This document shows, one piece after another, positions 9,022 to 63,289 of a stretch of 64,000 bases of DNA. Made by a program: the position numbers and the translations under genes. How positions within the stretch are numbered: position 1 is the first letter of the stretch; each line of letters opens with the position of its first letter. The notes under the pieces were generated by a model. That model was not told the DNA's origin. It was given only the letters and a program-made list of their open reading frames with translations, and made no database searches. Source of the DNA: Eledone cirrhosa (taxonomy: Eukaryota); the NCBI GenBank assembly GCA_964016885.1, contig OZ024751.1, forward strand, positions 17,298,001 through 17,362,000, written 5' to 3'.

Positions 9022-9075
<54 letters not shown>

Positions 9076-9212
9076 AAACGAATATATGTGTGCATATGTG
9101 TATATGTACAATGTATTTATATACATGTATGAATATATATATATATTCATACACACAAACATTTTTGTGTGTATGTGAACATATATCTATATATATATTT
9201 ATATATATATAT

Positions 9213-12200
9213 ATATATTAGAAAGATCGAGTATCGAAAAATCGGCGCACGAGTTAACGAAAAACGAAATCCGATATGAGCGGCAGAGGGCTCAATAATT
9301 CAGATGAATCAGAGCTATAACTATCGTTAAAATACCGTCACATATAGAACAAGTCTACAATCAACCATACGATTTAAAATCGATAAAGGAAGATTCGGGC
9401 CAAACAGATAAAAAATATCAATAAAACAATACGTCAATAATTTAAATGAATGTAAAATCATACCCGGACCCACTAGAAAGGTGTTAAATCTAGCTTCATG
9501 GGTTTCTGTAAATCCTTAGACAGTACTCTATCAGCTCACATATAAATATAAAAGCCTACTAGAATAAGTGGAATGGAGTTTACGTCGTCAACGAGTTTTA
9601 TCCTGGCGGCAAAGGAGTCAACTAGCGGTGAAAAACGCACATGGCATTAGACAAGGGAGATGACCCCTATATCCGCGAAAATAATTCGAGTGAATGTGGA
9701 AATACACATATCGAATTAGAGTGCTCAATAGACATGTTAAAATAAAACAAAAGCTATTCATCACTCAATAGAATCGACAAAATATGAGCAATAAAATTAA
9801 CTGGTGGATAGCTATGTCCAGAGCTAAATATATTAGAAAGATCGAGTATCGAAAAATCGGCGCACGAGTTAACGAAAAACGAAATCCGATATGAGCGGCA
9901 GAGGGCTCAATAATTCAGATGAATCAGAGCTATAACTATCGTTAAAATACCGTCACATATAGAACAAGTCTACAATCAACCATACGATTTAAAATCGATA
10001 AAGGAAGATTCGGGCCAAACAGATAAAAAATATCAATAAAACAATACGTCAATAATTTAAATGAATGTAAAATCATACCCGGACCCACTAGAAAGGTGTT
10101 AAATCTAGCTTCATGGGTTTCTGTAAATCCTTAGACAGTACTCTATCAGCTCACATATAAATATAAAAGCCTACTAGAATAAGTGGAATGGAGTTTACGT
10201 CGTCAACGAGTTTTATCCTGGCGGCAAAGGAGTCAACTAGCGGTGAAAAACGCACATGGCATTAGACAAGGGAGATGACCCCTATATCCGCGAAAATAAT
10301 TCGAGTGAATGTGGAAATACACATATCGAATTAGAGTGCTCAATAGACATGTTAAAATAAAACAAAAGCTATTCATCACTCAATAGAATCGACAAAATAT
10401 GAGCAATAAAATTAACTGGTGGATAGCTATGTCCAGAGCTAAATATATTAGAAAGATCGAGTATCGAAAAATCGGCGCACGAGTTAACGAAAAACGAAAT
10501 CCGATATGAGCGGCAGAGGGCTCAATAATTCAGATGAATCAGAGCTATAACTATCGTTAAAATACCGTCACATATAGAACAAGTCTACAATCAACCATAC
10601 GATTTAAAATCGATAAAGGAAGATTCGGGCCAAACAGATAAAAAATATCAATAAAACAATACGTCAATAATTTAAATGAATGTAAAATCATACCCGGACC
10701 CACTAGAAAGGTGTTAAATCTAGCTTCATGGGTTTCTGTAAATCCTTAGACAGTACTCTATCAGCTCACATATAAATATAAAAGCCTACTAGAATAAGTG
10801 GAATGGAGTTTACGTCGTCAACGAGTTTTATCCTGGCGGCAAAGGAGTCAACTAGCGGTGAAAAACGCACATGGCATTAGACAAGGGAGATGACCCCTAT
10901 ATCCGCGAAAATAATTCGAGTGAATGTGGAAATACACATATCGAATTAGAGTGCTCAATAGACATGTTAAAATAAAACAAAAGCTATTCATCACTCAATA
11001 GAATCGACAAAATATGAGCAATAAAATTAACTGGTGGATAGCTATGTCCAGAGCTAAATATATTAGAAAGATCGAGTATCGAAAAATCGGCGCACGAGTT
11101 AACGAAAAACGAAATCCGATATGAGCGGCAGAGGGCTCAATAATTCAGATGAATCAGAGCTATAACTATCGTTAAAATACCGTCACATATAGAACAAGTC
11201 TACAATCAACCATACGATTTAAAATCGATAAAGGAAGATTCGGGCCAAACAGATAAAAAATATCAATAAAACAATACGTCAATAATTTAAATGAATGTAA
11301 AATCATACCCGGACCCACTAGAAAGGTGTTAAATCTAGCTTCATGGGTTTCTGTAAATCCTTAGACAGTACTCTATCAGCTCACATATAAATATAAAAGC
11401 CTACTAGAATAAGTGGAATGGAGTTTACGTCGTCAACGAGTTTTATCCTGGCGGCAAAGGAGTCAACTAGCGGTGAAAAACGCACATGGCATTAGACAAG
11501 GGAGATGACCCCTATATCCGCGAAAATAATTCGAGTGAATGTGGAAATACACATATCGAATTAGAGTGCTCAATAGACATGTTAAAATAAAACAAAAGCT
11601 ATTCATCACTCAATAGAATCGACAAAATATGAGCAATAAAATTAACTGGTGGATAGCTATGTCCAGAGCTAAATATATTAGAAAGATCGAGTATCGAAAA
11701 ATCGGCGCACGAGTTAACGAAAAACGAAATCCGATATGAGCGGCAGAGGGCTCAATAATTCAGATGAATCAGAGCTATAACTATCGTTAAAATACCGTCA
11801 CATATAGAACAAGTCTACAATCAACCATACGATTTAAAATCGATAAAGGAAGATTCGGGCCAAACAGATAAAAAATATCAATAAAACAATACGTCAATAA
11901 TTTAAATGAATGTAAAATCATACCCGGACCCACTAGAAAGGTGTTAAATCTAGCTTCATGGGTTTCTGTAAATCCTTAGACAGTACTCTATCAGCTCACA
12001 TATAAATATAAAAGCCTACTAGAATAAGTGGAATGGAGTTTACGTCGTCAACGAGTTTTATCCTGGCGGCAAAGGAGTCAACTAGCGGTGAAAAACGCAC
12101 ATGGCATTAGACAAGGGAGATGACCCCTATATCCGCGAAAATAATTCGAGTGAATGTGGAAATACACATATCGAATTAGAGTGCTCAATAGACATGTTAA

Positions 12201-15200
12201 AATAAAACAAAAGCTATTCATCACTCAATAGAATCGACAAAATATGAGCAATAAAATTAACTGGTGGATAGCTATGTCCAGAGCTAAATATATTAGAAAG
12301 ATCGAGTATCGAAAAATCGGCGCACGAGTTAACGAAAAACGAAATCCGATATGAGCGGCAGAGGGCTCAATAATTCAGATGAATCAGAGCTATAACTATC
12401 GTTAAAATACCGTCACATATAATCAACCATACGATTTTAAAAAATACGATAAAGCGAAAGGAAGATTCGGGCCAAACAGATAAAAAATATCAATAAAACA
12501 ATACGTCAATAATTTAAATGAATGTAAAATCATACCCGGACCCACTAGAAAGGTGTTAAATCTAGCTTCATGGGTTTCTGTAAATCCTTAGACAGTACTC
12601 TATCAGCTCACATATAAATATAAAAGCCTACTAGAATAAGTGGAATGGAGTTTACGTCGTCAACGAGTTTTATCCTGGCGGCAAAGGAGTCAACTAGCGG
12701 TGAAAAACGCACATGGCATTAGACAAGGGAGATGACCCCTATATCCGCGAAAATAATTCGAGTGAATGTGGAAATACACATATCGAATTAGAGTGCTCAA
12801 TAGACATGTTAAAATAAAACAAAAGCTATTCATCACTCAATAGAATCGACAAAATATGAGCAATAAAATTAACTGGTGGATAGCTATGTCCAGAGCTAAA
12901 TATATTAGAAAGATCGAGTATCGAAAAATCGGCGCACGAGTTAACGAAAAACGAAATCCGATATGAGCGGCAGAGGGCTCAATAATTCAGATGAATCAGA
13001 GCTATAACTATCGTTAAAATACCGTCACATATAGAACAAGTCTACAATCAACCATACGATTTAAAATCGATAAAGGAAGATTCGGGCCAAACAGATAAAA
13101 AATATCAATAAAACAATACGTCAATAATTTAAATGAATGTAAAATCATACCCGGACCCACTAGAAAGGTGTTAAATCTAGCTTCATGGGTTTCTGTAAAT
13201 CCTTAGACAGTACTCTATCAGCTCACATATAAATATAAAAGCCTACTAGAATAAGTGGAATGGAGTTTACGTCGTCAACGAGTTTTATCCTGGCGGCAAA
13301 GGAGTCAACTAGCGGTGAAAAACGCACATGGCATTAGACAAGGGAGATGACCCCTATATCCGCGAAAATAATTCGAGTGAATGTGGAAATACACATATCG
13401 AATTAGAGTGCTCAATAGACATGTTAAAATAAAACAAAAGCTATTCATCACTCAATAGAATCGACAAAATATGAGCAATAAAATTAACTGGTGGATAGCT
13501 ATGTCCAGAGCTAAATATATTAGAAAGATCGAGTATCGAAAAATCGGCGCACGAGTTAACGAAAAACGAAATCCGATATGAGCGGCAGAGGGCTCAATAA
13601 TTCAGATGAATCAGAGCTATAACTATCGTTAAAATACCGTCACATATAGAACAAGTCTACAATCAACCATACGATTTAAAATCGATAAAGGAAGATTCGG
13701 GCCAAACAGATAAAAAATATCAATAAAACAATACGTCAATAATTTAAATGAATGTAAAATCATACCCGGACCCACTAGAAAGGTGTTAAATCTAGCTTCA
13801 TGGGTTTCTGTAAATCCTTAGACAGTACTCTATCAGCTCACATATAAATATAAAAGCCTACTAGAATAAGTGGAATGGAGTTTACGTCGTCAACGAGTTT
13901 TATCCTGGCGGCAAAGGAGTCAACTAGCGGTGAAAAACGCACATGGCATTAGACAAGGGAGATGACCCCTATATCCGCGAAAATAATTCGAGTGAATGTG
14001 GAAATACACATATCGAATTAGAGTGCTCAATAGACATGTTAAAATAAAACAAAAGCTATTCATCACTCAATAGAATCGACAAAATATGAGCAATAAAATT
14101 AACTGGTGGATAGCTATGTCCAGAGCTAAATATATTAGAAAGATCGAGTATCGAAAAATCGGCGCACGAGTTAACGAAAAACGAAATCCGATATGAGCGG
14201 CAGAGGGCTCAATAATTCAGATGAATCAGAGCTATAACTATCGTTAAAATACCGTCACATATAGAACAAGTCTACAATCAACCATACGATTTAAAATCGA
14301 TAAAGGAAGATTCGGGCCAAACAGATAAAAAATATCAATAAAACAATACGTCAATAATTTAAATGAATGTAAAATCATACCCGGACCCACTAGAAAGGTG
14401 TTAAATCTAGCTTCATGGGTTTCTGTAAATCCTTAGACAGTACTCTATCAGCTCACATATAAATATAAAAGCCTACTAGAATAAGTGGAATGGAGTTTAC
14501 GTCGTCAACGAGTTTTATCCTGGCGGCAAAGGAGTCAACTAGCGGTGAAAAACGCACATGGCATTAGACAAGGGAGATGACCCCTATATCCGCGAAAATA
14601 ATTCGAGTGAATGTGGAAATACACATATCGAATTAGAGTGCTCAATAGACATGTTAAAATAAAACAAAAGCTATTCATCACTCAATAGAATCGACAAAAT
14701 ATGAGCAATAAAATTAACTGGTGGATAGCTATGTCCAGAGCTAAATATATTAGAAAGATCGAGTATCGAAAAATCGGCGCACGAGTTAACGAAAAACGAA
14801 ATCCGATATGAGCGGCAGAGGGCTCAATAATTCAGATGAATCAGAGCTATAACTATCGTTAAAATACCGTCACATATAGAACAAGTCTACAATCAACCAT
14901 ACGATTTAAAATCGATAAAGGAAGATTCGGGCCAAACAGATAAAAAATATCAATAAAACAATACGTCAATAATTTAAATGAATGTAAAATCATACCCGGA
15001 CCCACTAGAAAGGTGTTAAATCTAGCTTCATGGGTTTCTGTAAATCCTTAGACAGTACTCTATCAGCTCACATATAAATATAAAAGCCTACTAGAATAAG
15101 TGGAATGGAGTTTACGTCGTCAACGAGTTTTATCCTGGCGGCAAAGGAGTCAACTAGCGGTGAAAAACGCACATGGCATTAGACAAGGGAGATGACCCCT

Positions 15201-18200
15201 ATATCCGCGAAAATAATTCGAGTGAATGTGGAAATACACATATCGAATTAGAGTGCTCAATAGACATGTTAAAATAAAACAAAAGCTATTCATCACTCAA
15301 TAGAATCGACAAAATATGAGCAATAAAATTAACTGGTGGATAGCTATGTCCAGAGCTAAATATATTAGAAAGATCGAGTATCGAAAAATCGGCGCACGAG
15401 TTAACGAAAAACGAAATCCGATATGAGCGGCAGAGGGCTCAATAATTCAGATGAATCAGAGCTATAACTATCGTTAAAATACCGTCACATATAGAACAAG
15501 TCTACAATCAACCATACGATTTAAAATCGATAAAGGAAGATTCGGGCCAAACAGATAAAAAATATCAATAAAACAATACGTCAATAATTTAAATGAATGT
15601 AAAATCATACCCGGACCCACTAGAAAGGTGTTAAATCTAGCTTCATGGGTTTCTGTAAATCCTTAGACAGTACTCTATCAGCTCACATATAAATATAAAA
15701 GCCTACTAGAATAAGTGGAATGGAGTTTACGTCGTCAACGAGTTTTATCCTGGCGGCAAAGGAGTCAACTAGCGGTGAAAAACGCACATGGCATTAGACA
15801 AGGGAGATGACCCCTATATCCGCGAAAATAATTCGAGTGAATGTGGAAATACACATATCGAATTAGAGTGCTCAATAGACATGTTAAAATAAAACAAAAG
15901 CTATTCATCACTCAATAGAATCGACAAAATATGAGCAATAAAATTAACTGGTGGATAGCTATGTCCAGAGCTAAATATATTAGAAAGATCGAGTATCGAA
16001 AAATCGGCGCACGAGTTAACGAAAAACGAAATCCGATATGAGCGGCAGAGGGCTCAATAATTCAGATGAATCAGAGCTATAACTATCGTTAAAATACCGT
16101 CACATATAGAACAAGTCTACAATCAACCATACGATTTAAAATCGATAAAGGAAGATTCGGGCCAAACAGATAAAAAATATCAATAAAACAATACGTCAAT
16201 AATTTAAATGAATGTAAAATCATACCCGGACCCACTAGAAAGGTGTTAAATCTAGCTTCATGGGTTTCTGTAAATCCTTAGACAGTACTCTATCAGCTCA
16301 CATATAAATATAAAAGCCTACTAGAATAAGTGGAATGGAGTTTACGTCGTCAACGAGTTTTATCCTGGCGGCAAAGGAGTCAACTAGCGGTGAAAAACGC
16401 ACATGGCATTAGACAAGGGAGATGACCCCTATATCCGCGAAAATAATTCGAGTGAATGTGGAAATACACATATCGAATTAGAGTGCTCAATAGACATGTT
16501 AAAATAAAACAAAAGCTATTCATCACTCAATAGAATCGACAAAATATGAGCAATAAAATTAACTGGTGGATAGCTATGTCCAGAGCTAAATATATTAGAA
16601 AGATCGAGTATCGAAAAATCGGCGCACGAGTTAACGAAAAACGAAATCCGATATGAGCGGCAGAGGGCTCAATAATTCAGATGAATCAGAGCTATAACTA
16701 TCGTTAAAATACCGTCACATATAGAACAAGTCTACAATCAACCATACGATTTAAAATCGATAAAGGAAGATTCGGGCCAAACAGATAAAAAATATCAATA
16801 AAACAATACGTCAATAATTTAAATGAATGTAAAATCATACCCGGACCCACTAGAAAGGTGTTAAATCTAGCTTCATGGGTTTCTGTAAATCCTTAGACAG
16901 TACTCTATCAGCTCACATATAAATATAAAAGCCTACTAGAATAAGTGGAATGGAGTTTACGTCGTCAACGAGTTTTATCCTGGCGGCAAAGGAGTCAACT
17001 AGCGGTGAAAAACGCACATGGCATTAGACAAGGGAGATGACCCCTATATCCGCGAAAATAATTCGAGTGAATGTGGAAATACACATATCGAATTAGAGTG
17101 CTCAATAGACATGTTAAAATAAAACAAAAGCTATTCATCACACTCAATAGAATCGACAAAATATGAGCAATAAAATTAACTGGTGGATAGCTATGTCCAG
17201 AGCTAAATATATTAGAAAGATCGAGTATCGAAAAATCGGCGCACGAGTTAACGAAAAACGAAATCCGATATGAGCGGCAGAGGGCTCAATAATTCAGATG
17301 AATCAGAGCTATAACTATCGTTAAAATACCGTCACATATAGAACAAGTCTACAATCAACCATACGATTTAAAATCGATAAAGGAAGATTCGGGCCAAACA
17401 GATAAAAAATATCAATAAAACAATACGTCAATAATTTAAATGAATGTAAAATCATACCCGGACCCACTAGAAAGGTGTTAAATCTAGCTTCATGGGTTTC
17501 TGTAAATCCTTAGACAGTACTCTATCAGCTCACATATAAATATAAAAGCCTACTAGAATAAGTGGAATGGAGTTTACGTCGTCAACGAGTTTTATCCTGG
17601 CGGCAAAGGAGTCAACTAGCGGTGAAAAACGCACATGGCATTAGACAAGGGAGATGACCCCTATATCCGCGAAAATAATTCGAGTGAATGTGGAAATACA
17701 CATATCGAATTAGAGTGCTCAATAGACATGTTAAAATAAAACAAAAGCTATTCATCACTCAATAGAATCGACAAAATATGAGCAATAAAATTAACTGGTG
17801 GATAGCTATGTCCAGAGCTAAATATATTAGAAAGATCGAGTATCGAAAAATCGGCGCACGAGTTAACGAAAAACGAAATCCGATATGAGCGGCAGAGGGC
17901 TCAATAATTCAGATGAATCAGAGCTATAACTATCGTTAAAATACCGTCACATATAGAACAAGTCTACAATCAACCATACGATTTAAAATCGATAAAGGAA
18001 GATTCGGGCCAAACAGATAAAAAATATCAATAAAACAATACGTCAATAATTTAAATGAATGTAAAATCATACCCGGACCCACTAGAAAGGTGTTAAATCT
18101 AGCTTCATGGGTTTCTGTAAATCCTTAGACAGTACTCTATCAGCTCACATATAAATATAAAAGCCTACTAGAATAAGTGGAATGGAGTTTACGTCGTCAA

Positions 18201-20324
18201 CGAGTTTTATCCTGGCGGCAAAGGAGTCAACTAGCGGTGAAAAACGCACATGGCATTAGACAAGGGAGATGACCCCTATATCCGCGAAAATAATTCGAGT
18301 GAATGTGGAAATACACATATCGAATTAGAGTGCTCAATAGACATGTTAAAATAAAACAAAAGCTATTCATCACTCAATAGAATCGACAAAATATGAGCAA
18401 TAAAATTAACTGGTGGATAGCTATGTCCAGAGCTAAATATATTAGAAAGATCGAGTATCGAAAAATCGGCGCACGAGTTAACGAAAAACGAAATCCGATA
18501 TGAGCGGCAGAGGGCTCAATAATTCAGATGAATCAGAGCTATAACTATCGTTAAAATACCGTCACATATAGAACAAGTCTACAATCAACCATACGATTTA
18601 AAATCGATAAAGGAAGATTCGGGCCAAACAGATAAAAAATATCAATAAAACAATACGTCAATAATTTAAATGAATGTAAAATCATACCCGGACCCACTAG
18701 AAAGGTGTTAAATCTAGCTTCATGGGTTTCTGTAAATCCTTAGACAGTACTCTATCAGCTCACATATAAATATAAAAGCCTACTAGAATAAGTGGAATGG
18801 AGTTTACGTCGTCAACGAGTTTTATCCTGGCGGCAAAGGAGTCAACTAGCGGTGAAAAACGCACATGGCATTAGACAAGGGAGATGACCCCTATATCCGC
18901 GAAAATAATTCGAGTGAATGTGGAAATACACATATCGAATTAGAGTGCTCAATAGACATGTTAAAATAAAACAAAAGCTATTCATCACTCAATAGAATCG
19001 ACAAAATATGAGCAATAAAATTAACTGGTGGATAGCTATGTCCAGAGCTAAATATATTAGAAAGATCGAGTATCGAAAAATCGGCGCACGAGTTAACGAA
19101 AAACGAAATCCGATATGAGCGGCAGAGGGCTCAATAATTCAGATGAATCAGAGCTATAACTATCGTTAAAATACCGTCACATATAGAACAAGTCTACAAT
19201 CAACCATACGATTTAAAATCGATAAAGGAAGATTCGGGCCAAACAGATAAAAAATATCAATAAAACAATACGTCAATAATTTAAATGAATGTAAAATCAT
19301 ACCCGGACCCACTAGAAAGGTGTTAAATCTAGCTTCATGGGTTTCTGTAAATCCTTAGACAGTACTCTATCAGCTCACATATAAATATAAAAGCCTACTA
19401 GAATAAGTGGAATGGAGTTTACGTCGTCAACGAGTTTTATCCTGGCGGCAAAGGAGTCAACTAGCGGTGAAAAACGCACATGGCATTAGACAAGGGAGAT
19501 GACCCCTATATCCGCGAAAATAATTCGAGTGAATGTGGAAATACACATATCGAATTAGAGTGCTCAATAGACATGTTAAAATAAAACAAAAGCTATTCAT
19601 CACTCAATAGAATCGACAAAATATGAGCAATAAAATTAACTGGTGGATAGCTATGTCCAGAGCTAAATATATTAGAAAGATCGAGTATCGAAAAATCGGC
19701 GCACGAGTTAACGAAAAACGAAATCCGATATGAGCGGCAGAGGGCTCAATAATTCAGATGAATCAGAGCTATAACTATCGTTAAAATACCGTCACATATA
19801 GAACAAGTCTACAATCAACCATACGATTTAAAATCGATAAAGGAAGATTCGGGCCAAACAGATAAAAAATATCAATAAAACAATACGTCAATAATTTAAA
19901 TGAATGTAAAATCATACCCGGACCCACTAGAAAGGTGTTAAATCTAGCTTCATGGGTTTCTGTAAATCCTTAGACAGTACTCTATCAGCTCACATATAAA
20001 TATAAAAGCCTACTAGAATAAGTGGAATGGAGTTTACGTCGTCAACGAGTTTTATCCTGGCGGCAAAGGAGTCAACTAGCGGTGAAAAACGCACATGGCA
20101 TTAGACAAGGGAGATGACCCCTATATCCGCGAAAATAATTCGAGTGAATGTGGAAATACACATATCGAATTAGAGTGCTCAATAGACATGTTAAAATAAA
20201 ACAAAAGCTATTCATCACTCAATAGAATCGACAAAATATGAGCAATAAAATTAACTGGTGGATAGCTATGTCCAGAGCTAAATATATTAGAAAGATCGAG
20301 TATCGAAAAATCGGCGCACGAGTT
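9213..20324 (-). repeat. Tandem array of 18 x 615-bp units plus a ~45-bp partial unit; retrozyme-like (one HHR per unit)
   Basis: GAAAGATCGAG recurs at 9221, 9836, ... 20290 (11069 bp = 18x615 -3 +2). Units look identical apart from a rearranged patch at ~12420-12460 and a CA insertion at ~17140. Confidence 0.97.
9462..9596 (-). ncRNA. Type I hammerhead ribozyme candidate, first unit (repeats every ~615 bp, 18 copies)
   Basis: Minus strand: stem I ACUCG / core UUGACGA / C-GUAAA-C-UCC..~55-nt loop..GGA-UUUAC-A (stem II) / GAAA / stem III ACCCA-(UGAAG)-CUAGA..UCUAG-UGGGU / C (GUC site, predicted cut between 9467 and 9466) / CGGGU pairing with ACUCG. Confidence 0.75.
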
Positions 20325-20399
20325 ATATAATCAATCTACCTATCTTTTTCCGTTCATCACACTGACTTTCAACACAGGCACTCCGTAACCTCTATCTCA

Positions 20400-23221: not shown

Positions 23222-23421
23222 NNNNNNNNNNNNNNNNNNNNNNNNNNNNNNNNNNNNNNNNNNNNNNNNNNNNNNNNNNNNNNNNNNNNNNNNNNNNNNN
23301 NNNNNNNNNNNNNNNNNNNNNNNNNNNNNNNNNNNNNNNNNNNNNNNNNNNNNNNNNNNNNNNNNNNNNNNNNNNNNNNNNNNNNNNNNNNNNNNNNNNN
23401 NNNNNNNNNNNNNNNNNNNNN
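23222..23421. other. Assembly gap (200 N)
   Basis: Run of n. Confidence 1.
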
Positions 23422-39825: not shown

Positions 39826-39884
<59 letters not shown>

Positions 39885-40177
39885 AAAACAAATAACGAAA
39901 CGAAATTAAATTTCGTTTCGTTTGTAACTCACTTTTGTATGACTGACGCTTAAACAATTAAGTTAAAAATGTACATCTACATATGCATACTGAAATACTA
40001 GTGTGTATATGAATACACACACGTATACATATGTAGATGTAACAAGTCTTTCACTGGTTGCTTTACTGTGAGCAACCCAGCTATTCTGTATGTAAACACA
40101 CAGACAAACCGGTTTTTAGAGTCATACTGGTTTTCGAGGAAACACCTTCCCTCTATTCTCCAGAAAGCCAGACAAGG

Positions 40178-40222
40178 AATATTGAACTAGTTTCGTTGTT
40201 GTTACAACTCATCAGCAATATT
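40178..40222 (-). ncRNA. Canonical minimal type I HHR
   Basis: Exact reverse complement of 40668-40712. Confidence 0.88.
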
Positions 40223-40667
40223 TACCTATCTACCGGACTTTCTGGAGAATTGTTAAAGCACATATCGTTATATGCTTTTTCTATGAAAATTAGTAGTGGG
40301 CAGACTAATTTGCATAGAGTGTGAGTACGCACCGGTTCAGCGGAGACGATAAAAACAAATAACGAAGCGAAATTAAATTTCGTTTCGTTTGTAACTCACT
40401 TTTGTATGACTGACGCTTAAACAATTAAGTTAAAAATGTACATCTACATATGCATACTGAAATACTAGTGTGTATATGAATACACACACGTATACATATG
40501 TAGATGTAACAAGTCTTTCACTGGTTGCTTTAATGTGAGCAACCCAGCTATTCTGTATGTAAACACACAGACAAACCGGTTTTTAGAGTCATACTGGTTT
40601 TCGAGGAAACACCTTCCCTCTATTCTCCAGAATAGAGGGAAGGTGTTTAATAGCCGGTAGATAGGTA

Positions 40668-40712
40668 AATATTGCTGATGAGTTGTAACAACAACGAAAC
40701 TAGTTCAATATT
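40668..40712 (+). ncRNA. Canonical minimal type I HHR
   Basis: AAUAUUG CUGAUGA GUUGU-AACA-ACAAC GAAAC UA GUU CAAUAUU: 7-bp stem I, 5-bp stem II, palindromic AACUAGUU stem III. Confidence 0.88.
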
Positions 40713-41425
40713 CCTTGTCTGGCTTTCTGGAGAATAGAGGGAAGGTGTTTCCTCGAAAACCAGTATGACTCTAAAAACCGGTTTGTCTGTGTGTTTACAT
40801 ACAGAATAGCTGGGTTGCTCACATTAAAGCAACCAGTGAAAGACTTGTTACATCTACATATGTATACGTGTGTGTATTCATATACACACTAGTATTTCAG
40901 TATGCATATGTAGATGTACATTTTTAACTTAATTGTTATATATACATATATATATATATATAAATTCACGTATGCATGTAGCCAAGTATGCATACATACC
41001 TACGTTCCTACCTAGCTATTTACATAGATATACACGGAAGCACATACATAGATTCAAATATGCATGGATACATACGCGCATGCATAAACACACCTACATA
41101 AATACATTCATTTATGCATAAATATTATCATGTTTACATATATACACACAAACATACATAGATATATCTACATCATGTATGCATGCGTACATGCAAACAT
41201 ACACATACATATACATATATCGTATAGGGTGTGGTAAAAACCAGCTAGACCATAACCCACCAGAGTACTCGTTACTTGGGGGTAGTAGAGTGGGTAATAT
41301 GAAAAGATTCAGGACCTTCGGAGTCCTGAACCCTTTCCACCCTCTTCCTGCTATATCAAGCGTTAACCTAATATATCCCTTCCATATACTGTACCGATTG
41401 TGTTGTTATTTCTGTTAACCTTACA

Positions 41426-46720: not shown

Positions 46721-46918
46721 GAAAATGCAGAAATTAATGTGAGCGAGAAGCCAACAGTAATTCATACATATAAGTGACTATTACGTCATGATGGAAAGTA
46801 TTAACGTAAGGTATGGGAAAATAATTCAAACTCAATTCAAAAAAAGTCAAGACAAATTTTATCCACAGATTTTGTGTAAACCAGGGAAAAAACCAATAGA
46901 GTCTCAACTCAGAATAAA

Positions 46919-47318
46919 ATTAATTGTTTCTACTTTAGACACAAGGTCAGCAATTATCCAATACATTACTGGTACTTTATTTTATCGACCCCGTAAGGAT
47001 GAAAGGCAAAGTTAACCTCGGCCGGATTTGAACTCAGACTGTAAAGGGACGTAACTATGCTAGAAAGCATGGCGTCCAACCCTCTACCGATACTGCCAAT
47101 TCACCGCCCTTAACTCAGAATAAAATTAATTGTTTCTACTTTAGGCACAAGGCCAGCAAAATCACCAGTGTATTACTGGTACTTTATTTTATCGACCCCG
47201 TAAGGATGAAAGGCAAAGTTAACCTCGGCGGGATTTGAACTCAGAATGGCAAGGGGCGTAACTCTATGCGCCAAAGCATGGCATCCGACACTCTACCAAT
47301 ACTGCCAATCCACCGCCT
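46919..47318 (-). mobile_element. Two tandem full-length SINEs (S1)
   Basis: 46919-47110 and 47126-47318, with shared flank AACTCAGAATAAAATTAAT. Confidence 0.9.
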
Positions 47319-47749: not shown

Positions 47750-49404
47750 TTATGATTGCCATGAGGATGATGGTGATGATGGCGGTGATGATGATGGTGA
47801 AGATGATGATGATGATGATGATGATGACGATGACGACCATGATGATGGTGATGGTGATGGTGATGGTGATGACGGTGATGATGGTGATGATGATGATGAT
47901 GACGATGGTGATGACGACAATGACAATGATCATGATGATGATCATGATCATGATGATGATCATGATCATGATGATAATGACGATGACGATGATAATGACG
48001 ATGCCGATGATGATGATGACGATGACGATGACGATGACGATGATGAAGATGATGATGATGACGATGATAATGATGATGACCGCACGTCGTAGTGGCGCTG
48101 CATCTGCATCTGCTGCTACTATGATATATGATACGATATGATATATGATATGATATGATATATGATGGTGGTGGTGATGGTGAGACGATGGTGATGGTGG
48201 TGACGGTGTTGATGATGATGATGATGATGATGTGATATGATATATGATATGATATGATATATGATGGTGGTGGTGATGGTGAGACGATGGTGATGGTGGT
48301 GACGGTGATGATGATGGTGATGGTGATGTGATATGATATATGATACGATATGATATATGATGGTGGTGGTGATGGTGAGACGATGGTGACGGTGGTGATG
48401 ATGGTGATGATGATGTGATATGATATATGATATGATATGATATATGATGGTGGTGGTGATGGTGAGACGATGGTGATGGTGGTGACGGTGTTGATGATGG
48501 TGATGATGATGATGTGATATGATATATGATACGATATGATATATGATGGTGGTGGTGATGGTGAGACGATGGTGATGGTGGTGACGGTGTTGATGATGAT
48601 GATGATGATGATGTGATATGATATATGATACGATATGATATATGATGGTGGTGGTGATGGTGAGACGATGGCGATGGTGGTGACGGTGTTGATGATGGTG
48701 ATGGTGAGACGATGGTGATGGTGATGATGATGGTGATGATGATGTGATATGATATATGATACGATATGATATATGATGGTGGTGGTGATGGTGAGACGAT
48801 GGTGATGGTGATGATGATGGTGATGATGATGTGATATGATATATGATACGATATGATATATGATGGTGGTGGTGATGGTGAGACGATGGTGATGGTGGTG
48901 ACGGTGATGATGATGATGATGGTGAGACGATGGTGATGGTGATGATGATGGTGATGATGATGTGATATGATATATGATATGATATGATATATGATATGAT
49001 ATGATATATGATGGTGGTGGTGATGGTGAGACGATGGTGATGGTGGTGACGGTGTTGATGATGGTGATGATGAGACGATGGTGATGGTGATGATGATGGT
49101 GATGATGATGTGATATGATATATGATATGATATGATATATGATGGTGGTGGTGATGGTGAGACGATGGTGATGGTGATGATGATGGTGATGATGATGTGA
49201 TATGATATATGATATGATATGATATATGATTGTGGTGGTGATGGTGAGACGATGGTGATGGTGGTGACGGTGTTGATGATGATGATGGTGAGACGATGGT
49301 GATGGTGATGATGAGGGTGATGATGATGTGATATGATATATGATATGATATGATATATGATTGTGGTGGTGATGGTGAGACGATGGTGGTGGTGGTGACG
49401 GTGA

Positions 49405-49436
<32 letters not shown>

Positions 49437-54510: not shown

Positions 54511-55429
54511 CCAAGATATTATCAGTTAAAAAGCTAGTTTTGTTACACAATTTGTCAAACTAAATCCTCATCAAAACTGAGTTCATTGTAACCGTATCTG
54601 TGGAATTCTCAATCAATTGCCCATTACTTTTACGAGCCGGCTGTTCTGTGGTGCCGAAGAACAATCATTGTCAAAATCGACGGAGGTACAATACACACAT
54701 TCAATAATTATAATGTCATTGTCATTACATTTTCTGGAACAGTGTTTAGTATTATATAAACACTATTTCTCGGCTTCTATTCATTATATACTTAATATAT
54801 ATTTTTTTAAACTTCAATATCTTAAAGATAGAGCAGACAATACCATTGTTGTATTCTAATTGAAAACCCATCGAAAAGATTAACACATCAAAAGAAAAAT
54901 ATATCTATGAGACACGCACAACAATAATATAGGAGACATATAATTGATAAAACTTTGCCATAAGATAGATTTTCATTTTCCTTTTTTGAAGTAAGATCAA
55001 CATCAACTAGACTGTTATACGGAGCTAAAGCTTGGAACATATTTCTAATTTGAAAAAATATGTTGAGTAAATAAATATATGCGTTGCTAGAGACGATGAC
55101 AGTTGATGGTTGGTAAATAACAAGATTGTTATTTACATGATATACTCATAATATCTGACAAACTATTTTGCTTATCATCTAATGTTTTCGGTACAATCAC
55201 CTCATCATTTGTATTTTGTCATTTGTGTCTCACTGTATGTCATTTAGTTTCGAATTGCACACCCACTGATACATACACATCACACATATCCATTCTTTCC
55301 TACTATCACAAGCGTTAAACGCATATGTTTCTAAATTATAATATTTCCTTACTTGTTTCCGTTATATATATATATATTTGTTTTGCGAGGTTTTTGATAT
55401 GAAATCGTGTGTCGAAACAGATACTGTTA

Positions 55430-55849
55430 TACTTTAAGAAAGCCCACTGTACTAATAGGAAATGTATTATATGTGAAGTAAACCCTCGGATAAACTGTAT
55501 AGCTAGAAACGTAGTCTATAGCATAGGATGTACAGAGGGTACTTGCAGAAACATGACAACAACATGCATAGGCGAGAGAACTGGTAGCATGGGTGAAAGG
55601 ATAGACCAACACTGGGGGGAACTAAAAGGAGGAAAAGTCGGTTCAGTACTATACGAACACGTCAGACAACAACATGACGGTAACATAGACAACATAGAAA
55701 TTAAAATATCTAAACATAGAAATGACCCAGCAGATAGGCAAATCAGAGAGGCAAGTGAAATAAAACTTAAAAGGCCAAAGCTAAACCGAAAAAATGAATG
55801 GAATAACAACAACAACCAAACAAACAATACTGACCTAAGAGAAATATAA
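55430..55849 (+). pseudogene. Penelope-like element GIY-YIG endonuclease C-terminus (5'-truncated)
   Basis: C..C..C motif, then NVVYSIGC..C..CIGERTGSMGERIDQH..LYEH..H..RQIREASEIKLKRPKLNRKNEW, matching the PLE pattern VVY..YIGET..R..H..E..I..P.LN; no RT domain upstream. Confidence 0.85.
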
Positions 55850-56083
55850 ATAAATAAATATATACACAAACACAATAACAACAAACACATATAAGCACAC
55901 ACTAGTAAACTAAGATAGCATACAATAACCAAAACACAGTCAACCAAACGCGAACCCACACCAAACACTATACACACACGCAAGTGCATGCGCAGAGAAG
56001 AATACAAAAATAAATAAATAAATAAATAAACAGATTAAATGAAGATGGCGTAAATATACAATACAACAGGAGGAACATAATAG

Positions 56084-56126
56084 CACCACTGACGATGTTA
56101 CAGATGTGCAACGAAAGAACTTTGTT
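56084..56126 (+). ncRNA. HHR-like motif in the 3' terminal region of the GIY-YIG element
   Basis: CA CUGACGA U GUUACA-GA-UGUGCAAC GAAAG AA CUU UG; stem I weak. Confidence 0.55.
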
Positions 56127-56180
56127 AGACTATATATATGTGTTAATCTTCTAATTTATTATTATTACTATATATATATA

Positions 56181-59762: not shown

Positions 59763-60134
59763 CTATGGACACATAACCTCCGATGAAATCGTAGGGACGA
59801 CATCTTGCTGCTCTTAGCATTCTAAAACTGACAGAAGATCTTTAGGTTTAAGCATAGCTGATTTGATTCGGACAAAGAATCAATTCAGAGAAATGATTTG
59901 AGAAACCTGACAGAAGGAATTGCCGATTAATGGACTAATACTTATTTTATCAACCTTTAAATGTTGAATGGCGGTATTGGCACAGAACCAGAACAAATAG
60001 TGTAAAGTATTCTATCAGATGTGTTAACGATTCTGCCACTTCACCGCTTTTCTTATTTATACAGTGGCATATATTTATATAATTTCTCTCGCTCGGTGTT
60101 TGAGAGTTCCCTAATATTTAGATTGTTTTCCTGG

Positions 60135-60950
60135 CGTTCAAGTACCCCCCCCCCCCTTCCCAACGCACTTGGGATGCCTTCGAGTGCATCCTGGCCTCAG
60201 ACAGTATCACGCGCAAGCTCGATCAGCACTGCCTTGCTTGTTTTCGTGCGGCGTCCAAACCCCACAGTGGTGCCTGGCTCCATGCCCTGCCCGCCTTCTC
60301 TACTGGCACGCACTAGACAACCATAGCCTGCGAATCGGCGATTCCCTGAGGCTCGGCCTCCGGATCTGCCAGCCACACCAATGTCGCCGCTGTTCCACCC
60401 TGGACACTTTCGGCCTCTACCCGCTTTCCTGTCGCCACAGTGCCGGCCCCATTCCACGCGATGCTGCCCTCAACGAGGTCATTAAGCATGGCTTGGACGC
60501 TGCAGGCTTCCCTTCCCAGCTCGAGCTGGTGGGGTTGGATCGAGGGGACGGCAAAAGGCCAGATGCATGACCATCTTCCCGTTCCGTGGTGGGAGACCCC
60601 TCGTCTGGGATGCCACTTGCACCGACACTTTCTGCAGCCGCAACCTGGTGCAGTCAGCGACTGACCCAGTTTCTGCTGGACGTCGGGCTGAGAGGGCCAA
60701 ACTCCTCAAATACCGGTCGATCTCCGACAGGTTTGCGGTCGTACCCCTGGTAGTGGAGACTTCTGGTGTCCTCGGCCCCAGGGCTACCTCCTTACTCACC
60801 ACCATAGGCGACACTGAGCTGGCCAGCCGCAGGTGTGAGCCCGGTGTGTTGGAGCGGATTTTCCAGCGCGTCTCCCTTGCCGTCCTCCGGGGAAACACTT
60901 TCTCCATCCTGTCAGCCGGGGCTGTGGGTGGAGCCCCATCGCGTACCGTT
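60135..60950 (+). pseudogene. CRE-clade-like non-LTR retrotransposon 3' end: CCHC knuckle plus restriction-like (PD-D/ExK) endonuclease, frameshifted
   Basis: GC-rich island. Across frames: SGAWLHALP..LDNHSLRI..LRLGLRICQPHQC..C..D.FG..LSC..ALNEVIK..AGFPSQLE..GLDRGDGKRPD/MTIFPF..LVWDATCTDT..AE..K..KY..PLVVETSG..FQRVSLAVLRGN; frameshift at ~60567. Confidence 0.82.
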
Positions 60951-61028
60951 GTAGTTTTTGTATACAGATATTAACTCATCAATTCAAATTCTAGACACAA
61001 TACATAGCAGAATGAGAATACATTATTT

Positions 61029-61625: not shown

Positions 61626-61827
61626 GGATTAACAAAAAAGCCAATTAACTTTTTTTTTATTTCTACAAAACTATCACGTGGTGTACTAATAGTTGTCAGT
61701 ACAACATTCACAAAAGTCATTATATTGATTTGCGCTTCTGGAAATAACAAATTAATTCTTATATGCTTGATAAGCAGAGTTACTCATGCTGTATATAGTT
61801 TCAGTTTTTATTATCTTAGAATGTTAA

Positions 61828-62280
61828 GGGCAGCGGATTAGCAATATCGGTAGAGCGTCGGACAACATGCTTCACAGCATAGAGTTACGGGCCTAAGTTC
61901 AAATCCCGCCGAGGTTAACTTTGCCTTTGATCCTTACGGAGTCGAGATAATAAAGTACTAGTATTGCACTGGGGTCGATTTAATCGACATTTCCCTCCCC
62001 TAAAATTTCTGGCCTTGTGCCTATTTAAGAAAACATTATTCTAGAATGTAAGGGAAGCGGATTGCCAGTATCGTTAGGCCGTCAGACAACATGCTTCACA
62101 GGAGAGAGTTACGGCACTTTACGTTCTAAGTTCCAATCCCGCGCAGGTTAGCTTTGTCTTTTATCCTTACGGAGTCAATAAAATAAAGCACTAGTGATGC
62201 ACTAGGGTTGATTTAATAGACTTTCCGCTCCCCTTCAAATTTCTGGCCTTGTGCCTAAAGTAGAAACAATTATTTTAGAA
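61828..62280 (+). mobile_element. Two tandem SINE (S1) copies
   Basis: 61828-62040 and 62052-62280, bounded by TAGAATGT. Confidence 0.85.
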
Positions 62281-62436
62281 TGTAATATTGTATTGATATT
62301 ATTTGTAAATGTTGTTCTTAGCTATTAATTTTGATTCTGCAGACCACCTGTTTCCATCTAGGTAAGTTAATAATTTTAACCACTTCATGACTTAATAGGA
62401 TATGATTTGAACAATATGTCCAATAACGTGACGATG

Positions 62437-62579: not shown

Positions 62580-62626
<47 letters not shown>

Positions 62627-62769
62627 AATTAAAATACTAGAGTGTGTTGGAGTTAAATACCCTCTTCGTATTATAGAAATGACAGTAAAGGTATAGCTCA
62701 ATGTAATTAAACAGAGCCGAGGATTATAAAAATAAACCAAAGAAGCCTTCAATACATCAAAAGTCTTTA

Positions 62770-62815
62770 TTAGCCAACAATGTTTCGTCCTATTAAGGAC
62801 TCATCAGGGCAATTA
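62770..62815 (-). ncRNA. Canonical minimal type I HHR in a (TA)n-flanked element (~62625-62875)
   Basis: Minus: GCC CUGAUGA GUCC-UUAAUA-GGAC GAAAC AUU GUU GGC U AAUAAA. Confidence 0.85.
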
Positions 62816-62972
62816 AAGCTATAAGAAGCACTATCGGCCGATACAAGCCAAAAACTCAGAAGAATATTTTCATAATATATATATATATACATATATATAT
62901 ACGTTATTCCGGGTTGAATCGGAGGTAACCACAGTAAGTAAGGTACTCAATACTTTGCAGAGTATAAAATCA

Positions 62973-63025
62973 GAGATTCCTGATGATTTCTAAAGAATGA
63001 AACAGTTCTAGTCCTGTAGAATCTC
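62973..63025 (+). ncRNA. Type I HHR of family B (element ~62902-63040 in (TA)n)
   Basis: GAGAUUC CUGAUGA U UUC-UAAA-GAA U GAAAC AG-UUCUAGUC-CU GUA GAAUCUC; 7-bp stem I, 4-bp stem III. Confidence 0.85.
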
Positions 63026-63289
63026 ATCTATATTAAAACTATATATATATATATATATTACTATTCGGAGAATAGTATCTCTGGTAGTATTGGGTCATAT
63101 TTCGTTTTGCCTGGAGTGTCTCTCATTCGAGTCCTTCCATCAAAGCATGTTTACAAGCTCCCATAATAGGTTCATTATTGAAATGCACTAATTCCTCTCT
63201 TTTATAAATACATTTCTTTCTTTGCATGATCGGTTTTACTATTGCATGCTTTTCTGTCTGCTATTTACTTATGATGTCTAACATTTATC

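What the first reader, a model, noticed from the sequence alone, without database searches (positions are those of the whole stretch)
9200..9265. Array junctions fit rolling-circle reverse transcription primed at a (TA)n microsatellite
Seen: the array starts where the genomic (TA)n merges into the unit's internal AAATATATTAGAAAG. It runs 18 turns plus ~45 nt and stops mid-unit at 20324 (..CACGAGTTA|TATAATC). Neither end is at the HHR cut site (~250 nt inside), and the units are almost mutation-free. Inference: a nicked (TA)n 3' end annealed to UAAUAUAU in the minus-strand RNA and was extended around a circular template in one event. A permuted start is expected for a circle but not for a linear cleaved monomer.
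Basis: inference. Interest (0 to 1): 0.8.

Follow-up and report, generated by a model that had tools for sequence, protein, structure and literature searches.

The report
Retrozyme-like array inside a TA microsatellite
Eighteen almost identical 615-base copies of a natural repeat family sit head to tail inside a TA microsatellite and were likely written in by a Penelope-type reverse transcriptase, possibly circling a small RNA as already proposed for retrozymes, but the unit's hammerhead-like motif is non-standard and untested.

Summary
The array spans 9212-20325 (18.07 turns of 615 bp). 16 of 18 units are identical. The left end overlaps the (TA)n tract by ATATAT, the only such 6-mer in the unit; the right end overlaps by TA and is followed by TATA. 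Public runs show a natural, diverse family. One run has the same (TA)n start phase in 2 contigs, and the first ~125 nt are shared with other elements. The 'HHR' is not canonical: two extra core bases, almost no helix I, no Rfam match. It does lie in the family's most conserved block. Rolling reverse transcription of a circular RNA fits and is the published, untested retrozyme model. It is not the only fit. (TA)n targets, 30-40-nt tails, internal RT starts away from the HHR cut, multicopy non-autonomous tandems and 5' microhomology are all known Penelope-like-element (PLE) traits, so a permuted start does not prove a circle. DNA-level expansion, a linear multimer template and copy-number error stay open. 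There was no expression, empty-site or long-read test. Verdict: new variant of a known kind (non-autonomous PLE / retrozyme-like), and an unusually clean test case.

The parts
9024..9217 (.). Left flank: mixed (TA)n/(CA)n microsatellite, ending in a near-pure (TA)n tract; inferred target site
9212..9217 (.). 6-nt ATATAT shared by the microsatellite and the unit; the only such 6-mer in the unit; among the 2.4% most accessible 6-mers of the predicted minus-strand circle
9212..20325 (-). Head-to-tail array, 11,114 bp, 18.07 turns of a 615-bp non-coding unit (longest open frame 62 aa); minus strand inferred to be the RNA strand
9212..9336 (-). End module (~125 nt, shown for unit 1; inferred RNA 3' end) shared with other elements: higher depth in 3 of 3 runs with matches, and contigs of two runs leave the unit at the same base and continue with the same 7 letters
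   Evidence: 19666-19790 in unit 18
9459..9542 (-). Hammerhead-like motif (shown for unit 1): CUGA-U-A-GA, imperfect helix II, extra A before GAAA, 5+5-bp helix III, GUC; helix I 1 bp. Putative cut 9466/9467; activity untested
9376..9537 (.). 162-nt block with no listed substitution among family members (shown for unit 1); it includes the motif; one contig diverges exactly where the 11-nt helix III loop begins
   Evidence: 19830-19991 in unit 18
12420..12460 (.). Unit 6 singleton: 13-nt deletion over a 4-bp hairpin plus small insertions (copying slip or read error)
17136..17142 (.). Unit 13 singleton: 2-nt dinucleotide slip
20281..20325 (-). 45-nt terminal overrun (direct repeat of the array's first 45 nt); resembles the PLE tail
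20324..20329 (.). TATATA at the right junction (first TA shared with the unit); inferred remnant of the target microsatellite; a target-site duplication cannot be discerned

Best explanation
The array is a young insertion of a 615-base non-coding repeat family into a (TA)n microsatellite, likely made by the reverse transcriptase of a Penelope-like element (PLE) that copied a likely circular minus-strand RNA 18 times in one run. Shown: array anatomy, 6-nt overlap at the left end, natural diverse family, shared end module, conserved hammerhead-like block. Inferred: (1) an older tandem copy is transcribed on the minus strand and a monomer is closed into a circle; whether the atypical motif cuts is unknown; (2) a PLE GIY-YIG nuclease nicks (TA)n; (3) the freed TA-repeat 3' end pairs with the single-stranded AUAUAU of the RNA and primes cDNA; (4) RT goes round 18 times and the product is resolved 45 nt into the 19th turn, like a PLE tail; (5) the end is joined to the rest of the microsatellite. 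My odds: natural multi-copy insertion ~0.9; RT/PLE-made ~0.7; all 18 copies from one pass round a circular RNA ~0.4.
For: Homogeneity: 16 of 18 units identical, no substitution outside the unit-6 patch (95% bound 2.7e-4 per site), while 503 family contigs in run X3 spread 148/139/163/53 over the 99+/95-99/90-95/<90% classes: one template. 18 of 18 turns identical over 30 nt around the proposed cut and over 40 nt around the start: no template-jump scars. Both variants are singletons. Start at the 1 of 615 phases with 6-nt TA complementarity, predicted accessible (top 2.4% minus, 13.2% plus). X3 has (TA)n before the same phase in 2 contigs; X6 has a different right end: fixed left, variable right. 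First 125 nt deeper in 3 of 3 runs (28.6 vs 13.6; 152,000 vs 65,000; 10.2 vs 8.3), and contigs branch at 19790 in two runs, as for non-autonomous PLEs that share 3' ends (PMC8557442). Circular fold z -2.34 minus vs -0.99 plus, 40 shuffles. The relaxed hammerhead descriptor hits only the minus strand, and 16 of 5000 shuffles. No listed variant in 19830-19991 (39 sites; P=0.0002 for the gap, 0.0045 for the motif alone). The same window holds three other hammerhead-bearing inserts bounded by (TA)n, one with a GIY-YIG-like remnant and one with a PLE-type tandem plus inverted arm.
Against: The motif fails the canonical core and helix I; an insertion after A6 gave low activity in PMC3088659, and 8 of 9 predicted retrozymes did not cleave in the 2026 preprint. 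The descriptor was fitted after seeing the motif. Listed variants do not favour either strand's fold (at pairs with p>=0.5: minus 6 kept/11 broken, plus 6/10). The conserved-block statistic ignores relatedness, 6 of 46 hidden rows and loose ends at 19821, 19826, 19908 and 19931. The one purified PLE starts RT at a site NOT homologous to the cut DNA and uses uncut linear RNA (PMC11167929). Both known right ends (+39 here, +11 in X6) fall just past a full turn, which random fall-off from a circle does not predict, and the X6 end is not next to (TA)n. (TA)n tracts cover 6.7% of the rest of the window. No autonomous partner was linked by sequence. 11 kb of processive RT is assumed.
Confidence: 0.4

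Rival explanations
1. A PLE-type RT inserted one unit plus a 45-nt tail (or a few units); the array then grew at DNA level by unequal exchange, slippage or rolling-circle copying of a DNA circle between the direct repeats.
For: The 45-nt terminal repeat is a ready substrate; the X6 copy also ends just past one turn; the 2026 preprint names tandem formation followed by unequal crossover as the accepted model; the same is argued for Cassandra arrays (PMC7215508). Recent expansion also gives identical units.
Against: Several rounds of exchange with no substitution and no variant shared by neighbours (0 of 2 variants); 45 nt is short for a first exchange (general knowledge).
Confidence: 0.2
2. PLE RT copied a long linear read-through transcript of an already homogeneous donor array, starting internally; no circle and no ribozyme cut needed.
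For: The anole PLE starts RT internally on unprocessed RNA and HHR mutants do not affect insertion (PMC11167929); non-autonomous Chlamys give multicopy head-to-tail insertions without canonical HHRs (PMC8557442); the motif here may be dead.
Against: Needs an 11-kb transcript and a donor of 18 or more identical units, while family members differ by up to 10% or more; it moves the origin of homogeneity back one step.
Confidence: 0.12
3. Opposite polarity: the A-rich plus strand is the RNA, RT began at the right end (tail side), and the 6-nt overlap on the left is microhomology joining of the cDNA end to (TA)n.
For: PLE tails are described at the 3' end, or at either end, and 5' junctions by microhomology are documented (PMC3846280; PMC8557442); the GIY-YIG remnant in this window has an A-rich sense strand (skew +0.38); the unique ATATAT would also fix a joining site.
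Against: The hammerhead-like motif, the better fold and the shared end module point to the minus strand; a canonical hammerhead insert at 62625-62873 is also U-rich on its ribozyme strand (skew -0.22); right ends vary.
Confidence: 0.1
4. DNA-only element (non-autonomous Helitron-like rolling-circle transposon, or a dispersing satellite); the ATATAT in the unit is a captured piece of an earlier target.
For: The minus strand ends CTAA followed by T at the left junction, matching the Helitron CTRR|T terminus (PMC4778049); Helitron circles have head-to-tail junctions.
Against: No 5'-TC at the array end or at the unit junction; only a 4-bp hairpin (-2.7 kcal/mol for the last 45 nt); CTRR+T occurs 8 times per unit; the would-be 5' end varies; the conserved RNA-like block is unexplained.
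Confidence: 0.1
5. Assembly inflation: the true locus has few copies and the assembler or polisher produced 18 identical ones.
For: Only indel-type differences, typical of read error; a 200-N gap lies 2.9 kb to the right; no laid run spans or covers the right flank.
Against: Internal singleton variants are not expected from looping a graph; both junctions are biologically coherent; the array carries alleles that are minor in X3 (about 8% at 19710) or absent in X1 and X6, so it is not a family-majority consensus.
Confidence: 0.08

Closest known systems
Metazoan non-LTR retrozymes (Cervera and de la Pena 2020, PMC7229834; Li et al. 2026, bioRxiv 10.64898/2026.07.22.740005)
   Same: Non-coding, low-GC head-to-tail units; 615 bp lies within the 51-972 bp range; multimer; no LTR, PBS or PPT seen; proposed circRNA-templated multi-unit cDNA made by a PLE RT.
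   Different: No canonical or minimal type I hammerhead; longer than the 170-400 nt invertebrate circles; 18 copies (75% of families reach at most 7); circular RNA not shown; junctions point to a (TA)n-paired start, not described in the parts I read.
Non-autonomous Penelope-like elements, e.g. MRC1 / Chlamys-N; Neptune and Naiad (TA)n targeting (Craig et al. 2021, PMC8557442)
   Same: Microsatellite target hiding any TSD; multicopy head-to-tail insertion; tail-like overrun; end module shared with other families; non-canonical HHR cores occur in Naiads.
   Different: No sequence link to an autonomous PLE was obtained; no inverted 5' copy; the overrun is 39-45 nt and bounds both ends.
Anolis Poseidon PAc mechanism (Frangieh et al. 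2024, PMC11167929)
   Same: RT start 3' of and away from the HHR cut; AT-rich target; two sites a tail apart.
   Different: PAc start is not homologous to the cut DNA and uses linear uncut RNA; here there is a 6-nt overlap.
EN-minus PLEs Athena/Coprina (as described in PMC8557442)
   Same: Attachment to a simple-repeat DNA end helped by a complementary stretch near an HHR.
   Different: They use telomeric overhangs; here an internal (TA)n tract and only 6 nt.

Membership tests
Non-LTR retrozyme | Head-to-tail non-coding units, 51-972 bp, GC below 50% | tested here: met
   615 bp x 18, 36% GC, longest frame 62 aa
Non-LTR retrozyme | Canonical or minimal type I hammerhead core (CUGANGA, GAAA, NUH, helices I-II) in each unit | tested here: not met
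   No CUGANGA; extra base in each core strand, helix I 1 bp; no Rfam hit against a positive control
Non-LTR retrozyme | Self-cleavage and accumulation as circular RNA | not testable with these tools
   Needs in vitro assay and RNase R northern; no RNA holder listed, which is no evidence either way
Non-LTR retrozyme | Co-occurrence with PLEs in the genome | tested here: met
   GIY-YIG-like remnant with hammerhead core at 55380-56168 (Atlas score 0.97 to a cluster with PF01541 on 15% of members; Pfam and NCBIfam scans negative)
Non-autonomous PLE | Insertion bias for (TA)n with no discernible TSD | tested here: met
   This locus plus 2 contigs in X3; one X6 right end not at (TA)n
Non-autonomous PLE | Partial-tandem structure with a 30-40-nt tail | tested here: met
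   39 nt past the anchor, 45 nt with the shared ATATAT
Non-autonomous PLE | Sequence similarity to the 3' end / pLTR of an autonomous PLE | tested here: inconclusive
   A 125-nt module is shared with unidentified elements; no similarity to the window's own PLE remnants; no eukaryotic genome or TE library available
Helitron (Helitron1) | 3' CTRR followed by host T | tested here: met
   CTAA|T on the minus strand; 8 such sites per unit
Helitron (Helitron1) | 5' TC after host A, and exact 3'-to-5' head-to-tail junctions | tested here: not met
   No TC at the array's right end or after CTAA in the unit junction
Helitron (Helitron1) | Strong palindrome about 11 nt before the 3' end | tested here: not met
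   4-bp hairpin only; 19 bp in Helraiser
Other self-cleaving ribozymes in Rfam 15 | Covariance-model match | tested here: not met

The most novel reading that the evidence does not exclude
A fresh genomic footprint of a telomerase-related RT running 18 times round a circular RNA after base-paired priming on a (TA)n nick, from a family whose conserved processing element is a new hammerhead variant (two core insertions, no ordinary helix I, perhaps protein- or partner-assisted). It would be direct evidence for the untested circle-to-tandem-DNA step of the retrozyme cycle and a one-step birth of an 11-kb satellite.
Probability: 0.2. Interest if true: 0.75.

Novelty: new variant of a known kind. 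Interest (0 to 1): 0.42.

Why it matters
The step from retrozyme circRNA to tandem DNA has been proposed since 2014 (PMC4209133), and the 2026 preprint still calls the mechanism unresolved. A young, unmutated 18-copy insertion with readable junctions, from a family present in several public runs, makes it testable: start phase, end phase, polarity and allele series can be counted across loci. If true, a long satellite can appear in one step. If the motif cuts, it widens the hammerhead consensus and implies descriptor-based surveys miss such families. If not, this is an ordinary non-autonomous PLE array.

Tried and rejected
No own genome is held, so no other loci or empty sites in this assembly. 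No other copy of the unit in the window (best blastn E=0.032, A-rich 23-mers). No match in plasmids or phages, nor exact 21-23-nt matches in viral, metagenome or prokaryote genome collections. A gapped motif pattern gave 23 loci (1+14+8); 0 of 23 had blastn similarity to the unit at E<=0.1: chance. Lab spike-in or synthetic control: rejected, because the family varies widely among contigs. Coding circle with an endless ORF (615 is divisible by 3): rejected, stops in all six frames. Hi-C run X18: 0 reads laid in about 1% of the run, no test. X3 depth (1e4-2e5 against about 10 in X1 and X6) cannot be read as copy number or expression, as the run type is unknown. Local folds of the motif: z -0.3 to -0.6, not the hammerhead fold. 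Variant-versus-structure test: two predicted pairs have both partners variable and compatible (19755/19760, 20137/20171) on both strands, phase unknown; no strand call. The X3 joint skipping 148 nt (1 contig) does not match canonical splice ends. Homolog search of the GIY-YIG-like frame among longer proteins: none. tRNA scan negative; the sigma-70 scan is irrelevant and at background. Earlier-finding look-ups by sequence, words and place were empty; one search gave four unrelated-genome entries. Lunse et al. 2017 on PLE hammerhead variants is not held; bioRxiv supplements were not seen and could list similar families.

Full report
Observation. The window is AT-rich, microsatellite-dense eukaryotic DNA with one 200-N gap; my impression that it is cephalopod-like is recalled and comes from no call. 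An anchor occurs 19 times from 9218 to 20287 at 615-bp spacing. The array runs 9212-20325, 11,114 bp, 18.07 turns. 16 of 18 full units are identical; unit 13 has a 2-nt slip; unit 6 has a 13-nt deletion and 10 inserted bases within about 40 nt. The left end shares ATATAT with the flanking (TA)n, the single phase of 615 with six alternating bases. The right end shares TA (132 of 615 phases would) and is followed by TATA, so the array appears to split a (TA)n tract near its end; a target-site duplication cannot be read.

The 'HHR'. There is no CUGANGA on either strand. The minus strand has a look-alike: CUGA-U-A-GA, an imperfect helix II, an extra A before GAAA, a 5+5-bp helix III and GUC, with 1 bp of helix I. 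Rfam does not detect it but detects a canonical hammerhead elsewhere in the window (E=2.9e-8). A descriptor fitted to the motif hits 16 of 5000 shuffles with a 5-bp helix III and 55 of 5000 with 4 bp. In the folded minus-strand circle helix III forms with high probability and the C at the proposed cut is unpaired (0.90), while the CUGA strand is paired elsewhere in the minimum-energy fold. So it is a conserved hammerhead-like structure that fails the membership test; an insertion after A6 is a described low-activity natural variant (PMC3088659, passages).

The family. 17 of 24 listed runs hold part of the unit; 9 hold half or more of the words (6 organism labels, 5 studies). I laid 4 of the 24 on the last unit plus 64 nt of right flank. 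X18 gave no reads (no test). X1, X3 and X6 gave 11, 503 and 10 contigs, from under 90% to 100% alike, so this is a natural, diversified family. None covers the right flank, so the flank is not part of the element in these runs and no empty site could be tested. Of 38 loose ends 11 are shown: (TA)n before the same start phase (X3, 2 contigs); a branch at 19790 in X3 (3 contigs) and X6 (1) that continues with the same 7 letters; a right end at phase +11 in X6 running into a different repeat that also occurs 7 times in this window; and one contig that diverges exactly where the 11-nt loop of helix III begins. The first 125 nt are deeper than the next 225 in all three runs (depth is not copy number, and the first 45 nt occur twice in the stretch). 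Of 46 variant rows 40 are shown (39 sites); none falls in 19830-19991. These point to a fixed left end, a shared end module there, and constraint on the motif region. They rest on few contigs, and variants do not pick a strand.

Surroundings. Three other inserts in the window carry CUGANGA-type hammerhead cores and are bounded by (TA)n: 39882-40937 (partial tandem plus a 284-nt perfect inverted arm, the PLE arrangement), 62625-62873, and 55380-56168 with a GIY-YIG-like frame. A (TA)n-targeting PLE machinery has therefore likely been active in this genome. None resembles the unit in sequence.

Mechanism. One template was copied: no substitutions in 11 kb against wide family diversity. All 18 turns are perfect across the proposed cut and the start, which argues against repeated jumping between the ends of a linear monomer and for a closed template or DNA-level copying. 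The minus strand is the better RNA candidate (motif, circular fold z -2.34 vs -0.99, accessible start, end module). I therefore favour PLE-driven reverse transcription primed at (TA)n (about 0.7 for RT origin) with a circular RNA read 18 times (0.4). Rivals: short insertion then DNA-level expansion (0.2), linear multimer template with internal start (0.12), opposite polarity with microhomology joining (0.1), DNA rolling-circle element (0.1; CTRR|T met, 5'-TC and hairpin not met), assembly inflation (0.08).

What is known. Circular RNA as template for more-than-unit cDNA explaining tandem PLEs was proposed in 2014 (PMC4209133; passages and one section) and for metazoan retrozymes in 2020 (PMC7229834; passages and Discussion; review PMC7761336, passages). 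A 2026 preprint (main text, parts 1-3 of 5; supplements not seen) extends units to 51-972 bp, ties them to PLE pLTRs and leaves the mechanism open. Craig et al. 2021 (passages) describe (TA)n targets, 30-40-bp tails at either end, hidden TSDs and multicopy non-autonomous insertions. Frangieh et al. 2024 (main text, parts 1-2 of 4) show internal RT starts on uncut RNA, not homologous to the cut DNA. PMC3846280, PMC9977147, PMC4778049 and PMC7215508 were seen as passages. My ten searches listed no paper that maps a retrozyme-like array's junctions to microsatellite-paired priming or describes this family; the library lacks most subscription journals and no TE database was searchable.

Verdict. 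It works like a non-LTR retrozyme or non-autonomous PLE array, but is not filed as a retrozyme because the hammerhead core test is not met. New variant of a known kind. Interest 0.42, for a clean natural test case and a conserved atypical ribozyme-like motif.

Noticed in passing
window 39882-40937: Young PLE-type insertion between (TA)n tracts: 467-bp partial tandem, 284-nt 100% inverted arm, two canonical type I hammerheads on opposite strands (Rfam HH9 E=2.9e-8).
   Followed up: partly
window 62625-62873: 249-bp monomer with a canonical hammerhead core (minus strand, 62807) between two (TA)n tracts; retrozyme-like solo.
   Followed up: partly
window 62940-63040: Further hammerhead-like core on the plus strand at 62980, ending near a (TA)n tract.
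   Followed up: no
window 55380-56168: Truncated PLE-like remnant: GIY-YIG-like frame 55403-55849 (Atlas lead; Pfam negative) followed by a hammerhead core near 56090, between (TA)n tracts.
   Followed up: partly
window 60115-60974: GC-rich broken frames resembling the C-terminal nuclease region of a non-LTR retrotransposon (resemblance recalled; Atlas hits at 0.97 are unnamed; Pfam negative).
   Followed up: partly
window 46906-47317 and 61810-62285: Dimers of 207- and 233-bp dispersed SINE-like repeats; a 14-nt motif of this repeat occurs 7 times in the window and in the flank of the X6 copy.
   Followed up: no
run X3: Word depth on the unit is 1e4-2e5, against about 10 in X1 and X6: very high copy number or high expression in that organism; run type unknown.
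   Followed up: no
run X3, window 20005-20154: One contig skips 148 nt of the unit: possible internally deleted subfamily.
   Followed up: no
window 47761-49424: 1.7-kb higher-order (GAT)n-derived minisatellite with extreme GC skew.
   Followed up: no
window 23222-23421: 200-N scaffold gap 2.9 kb right of the array.
   Followed up: no
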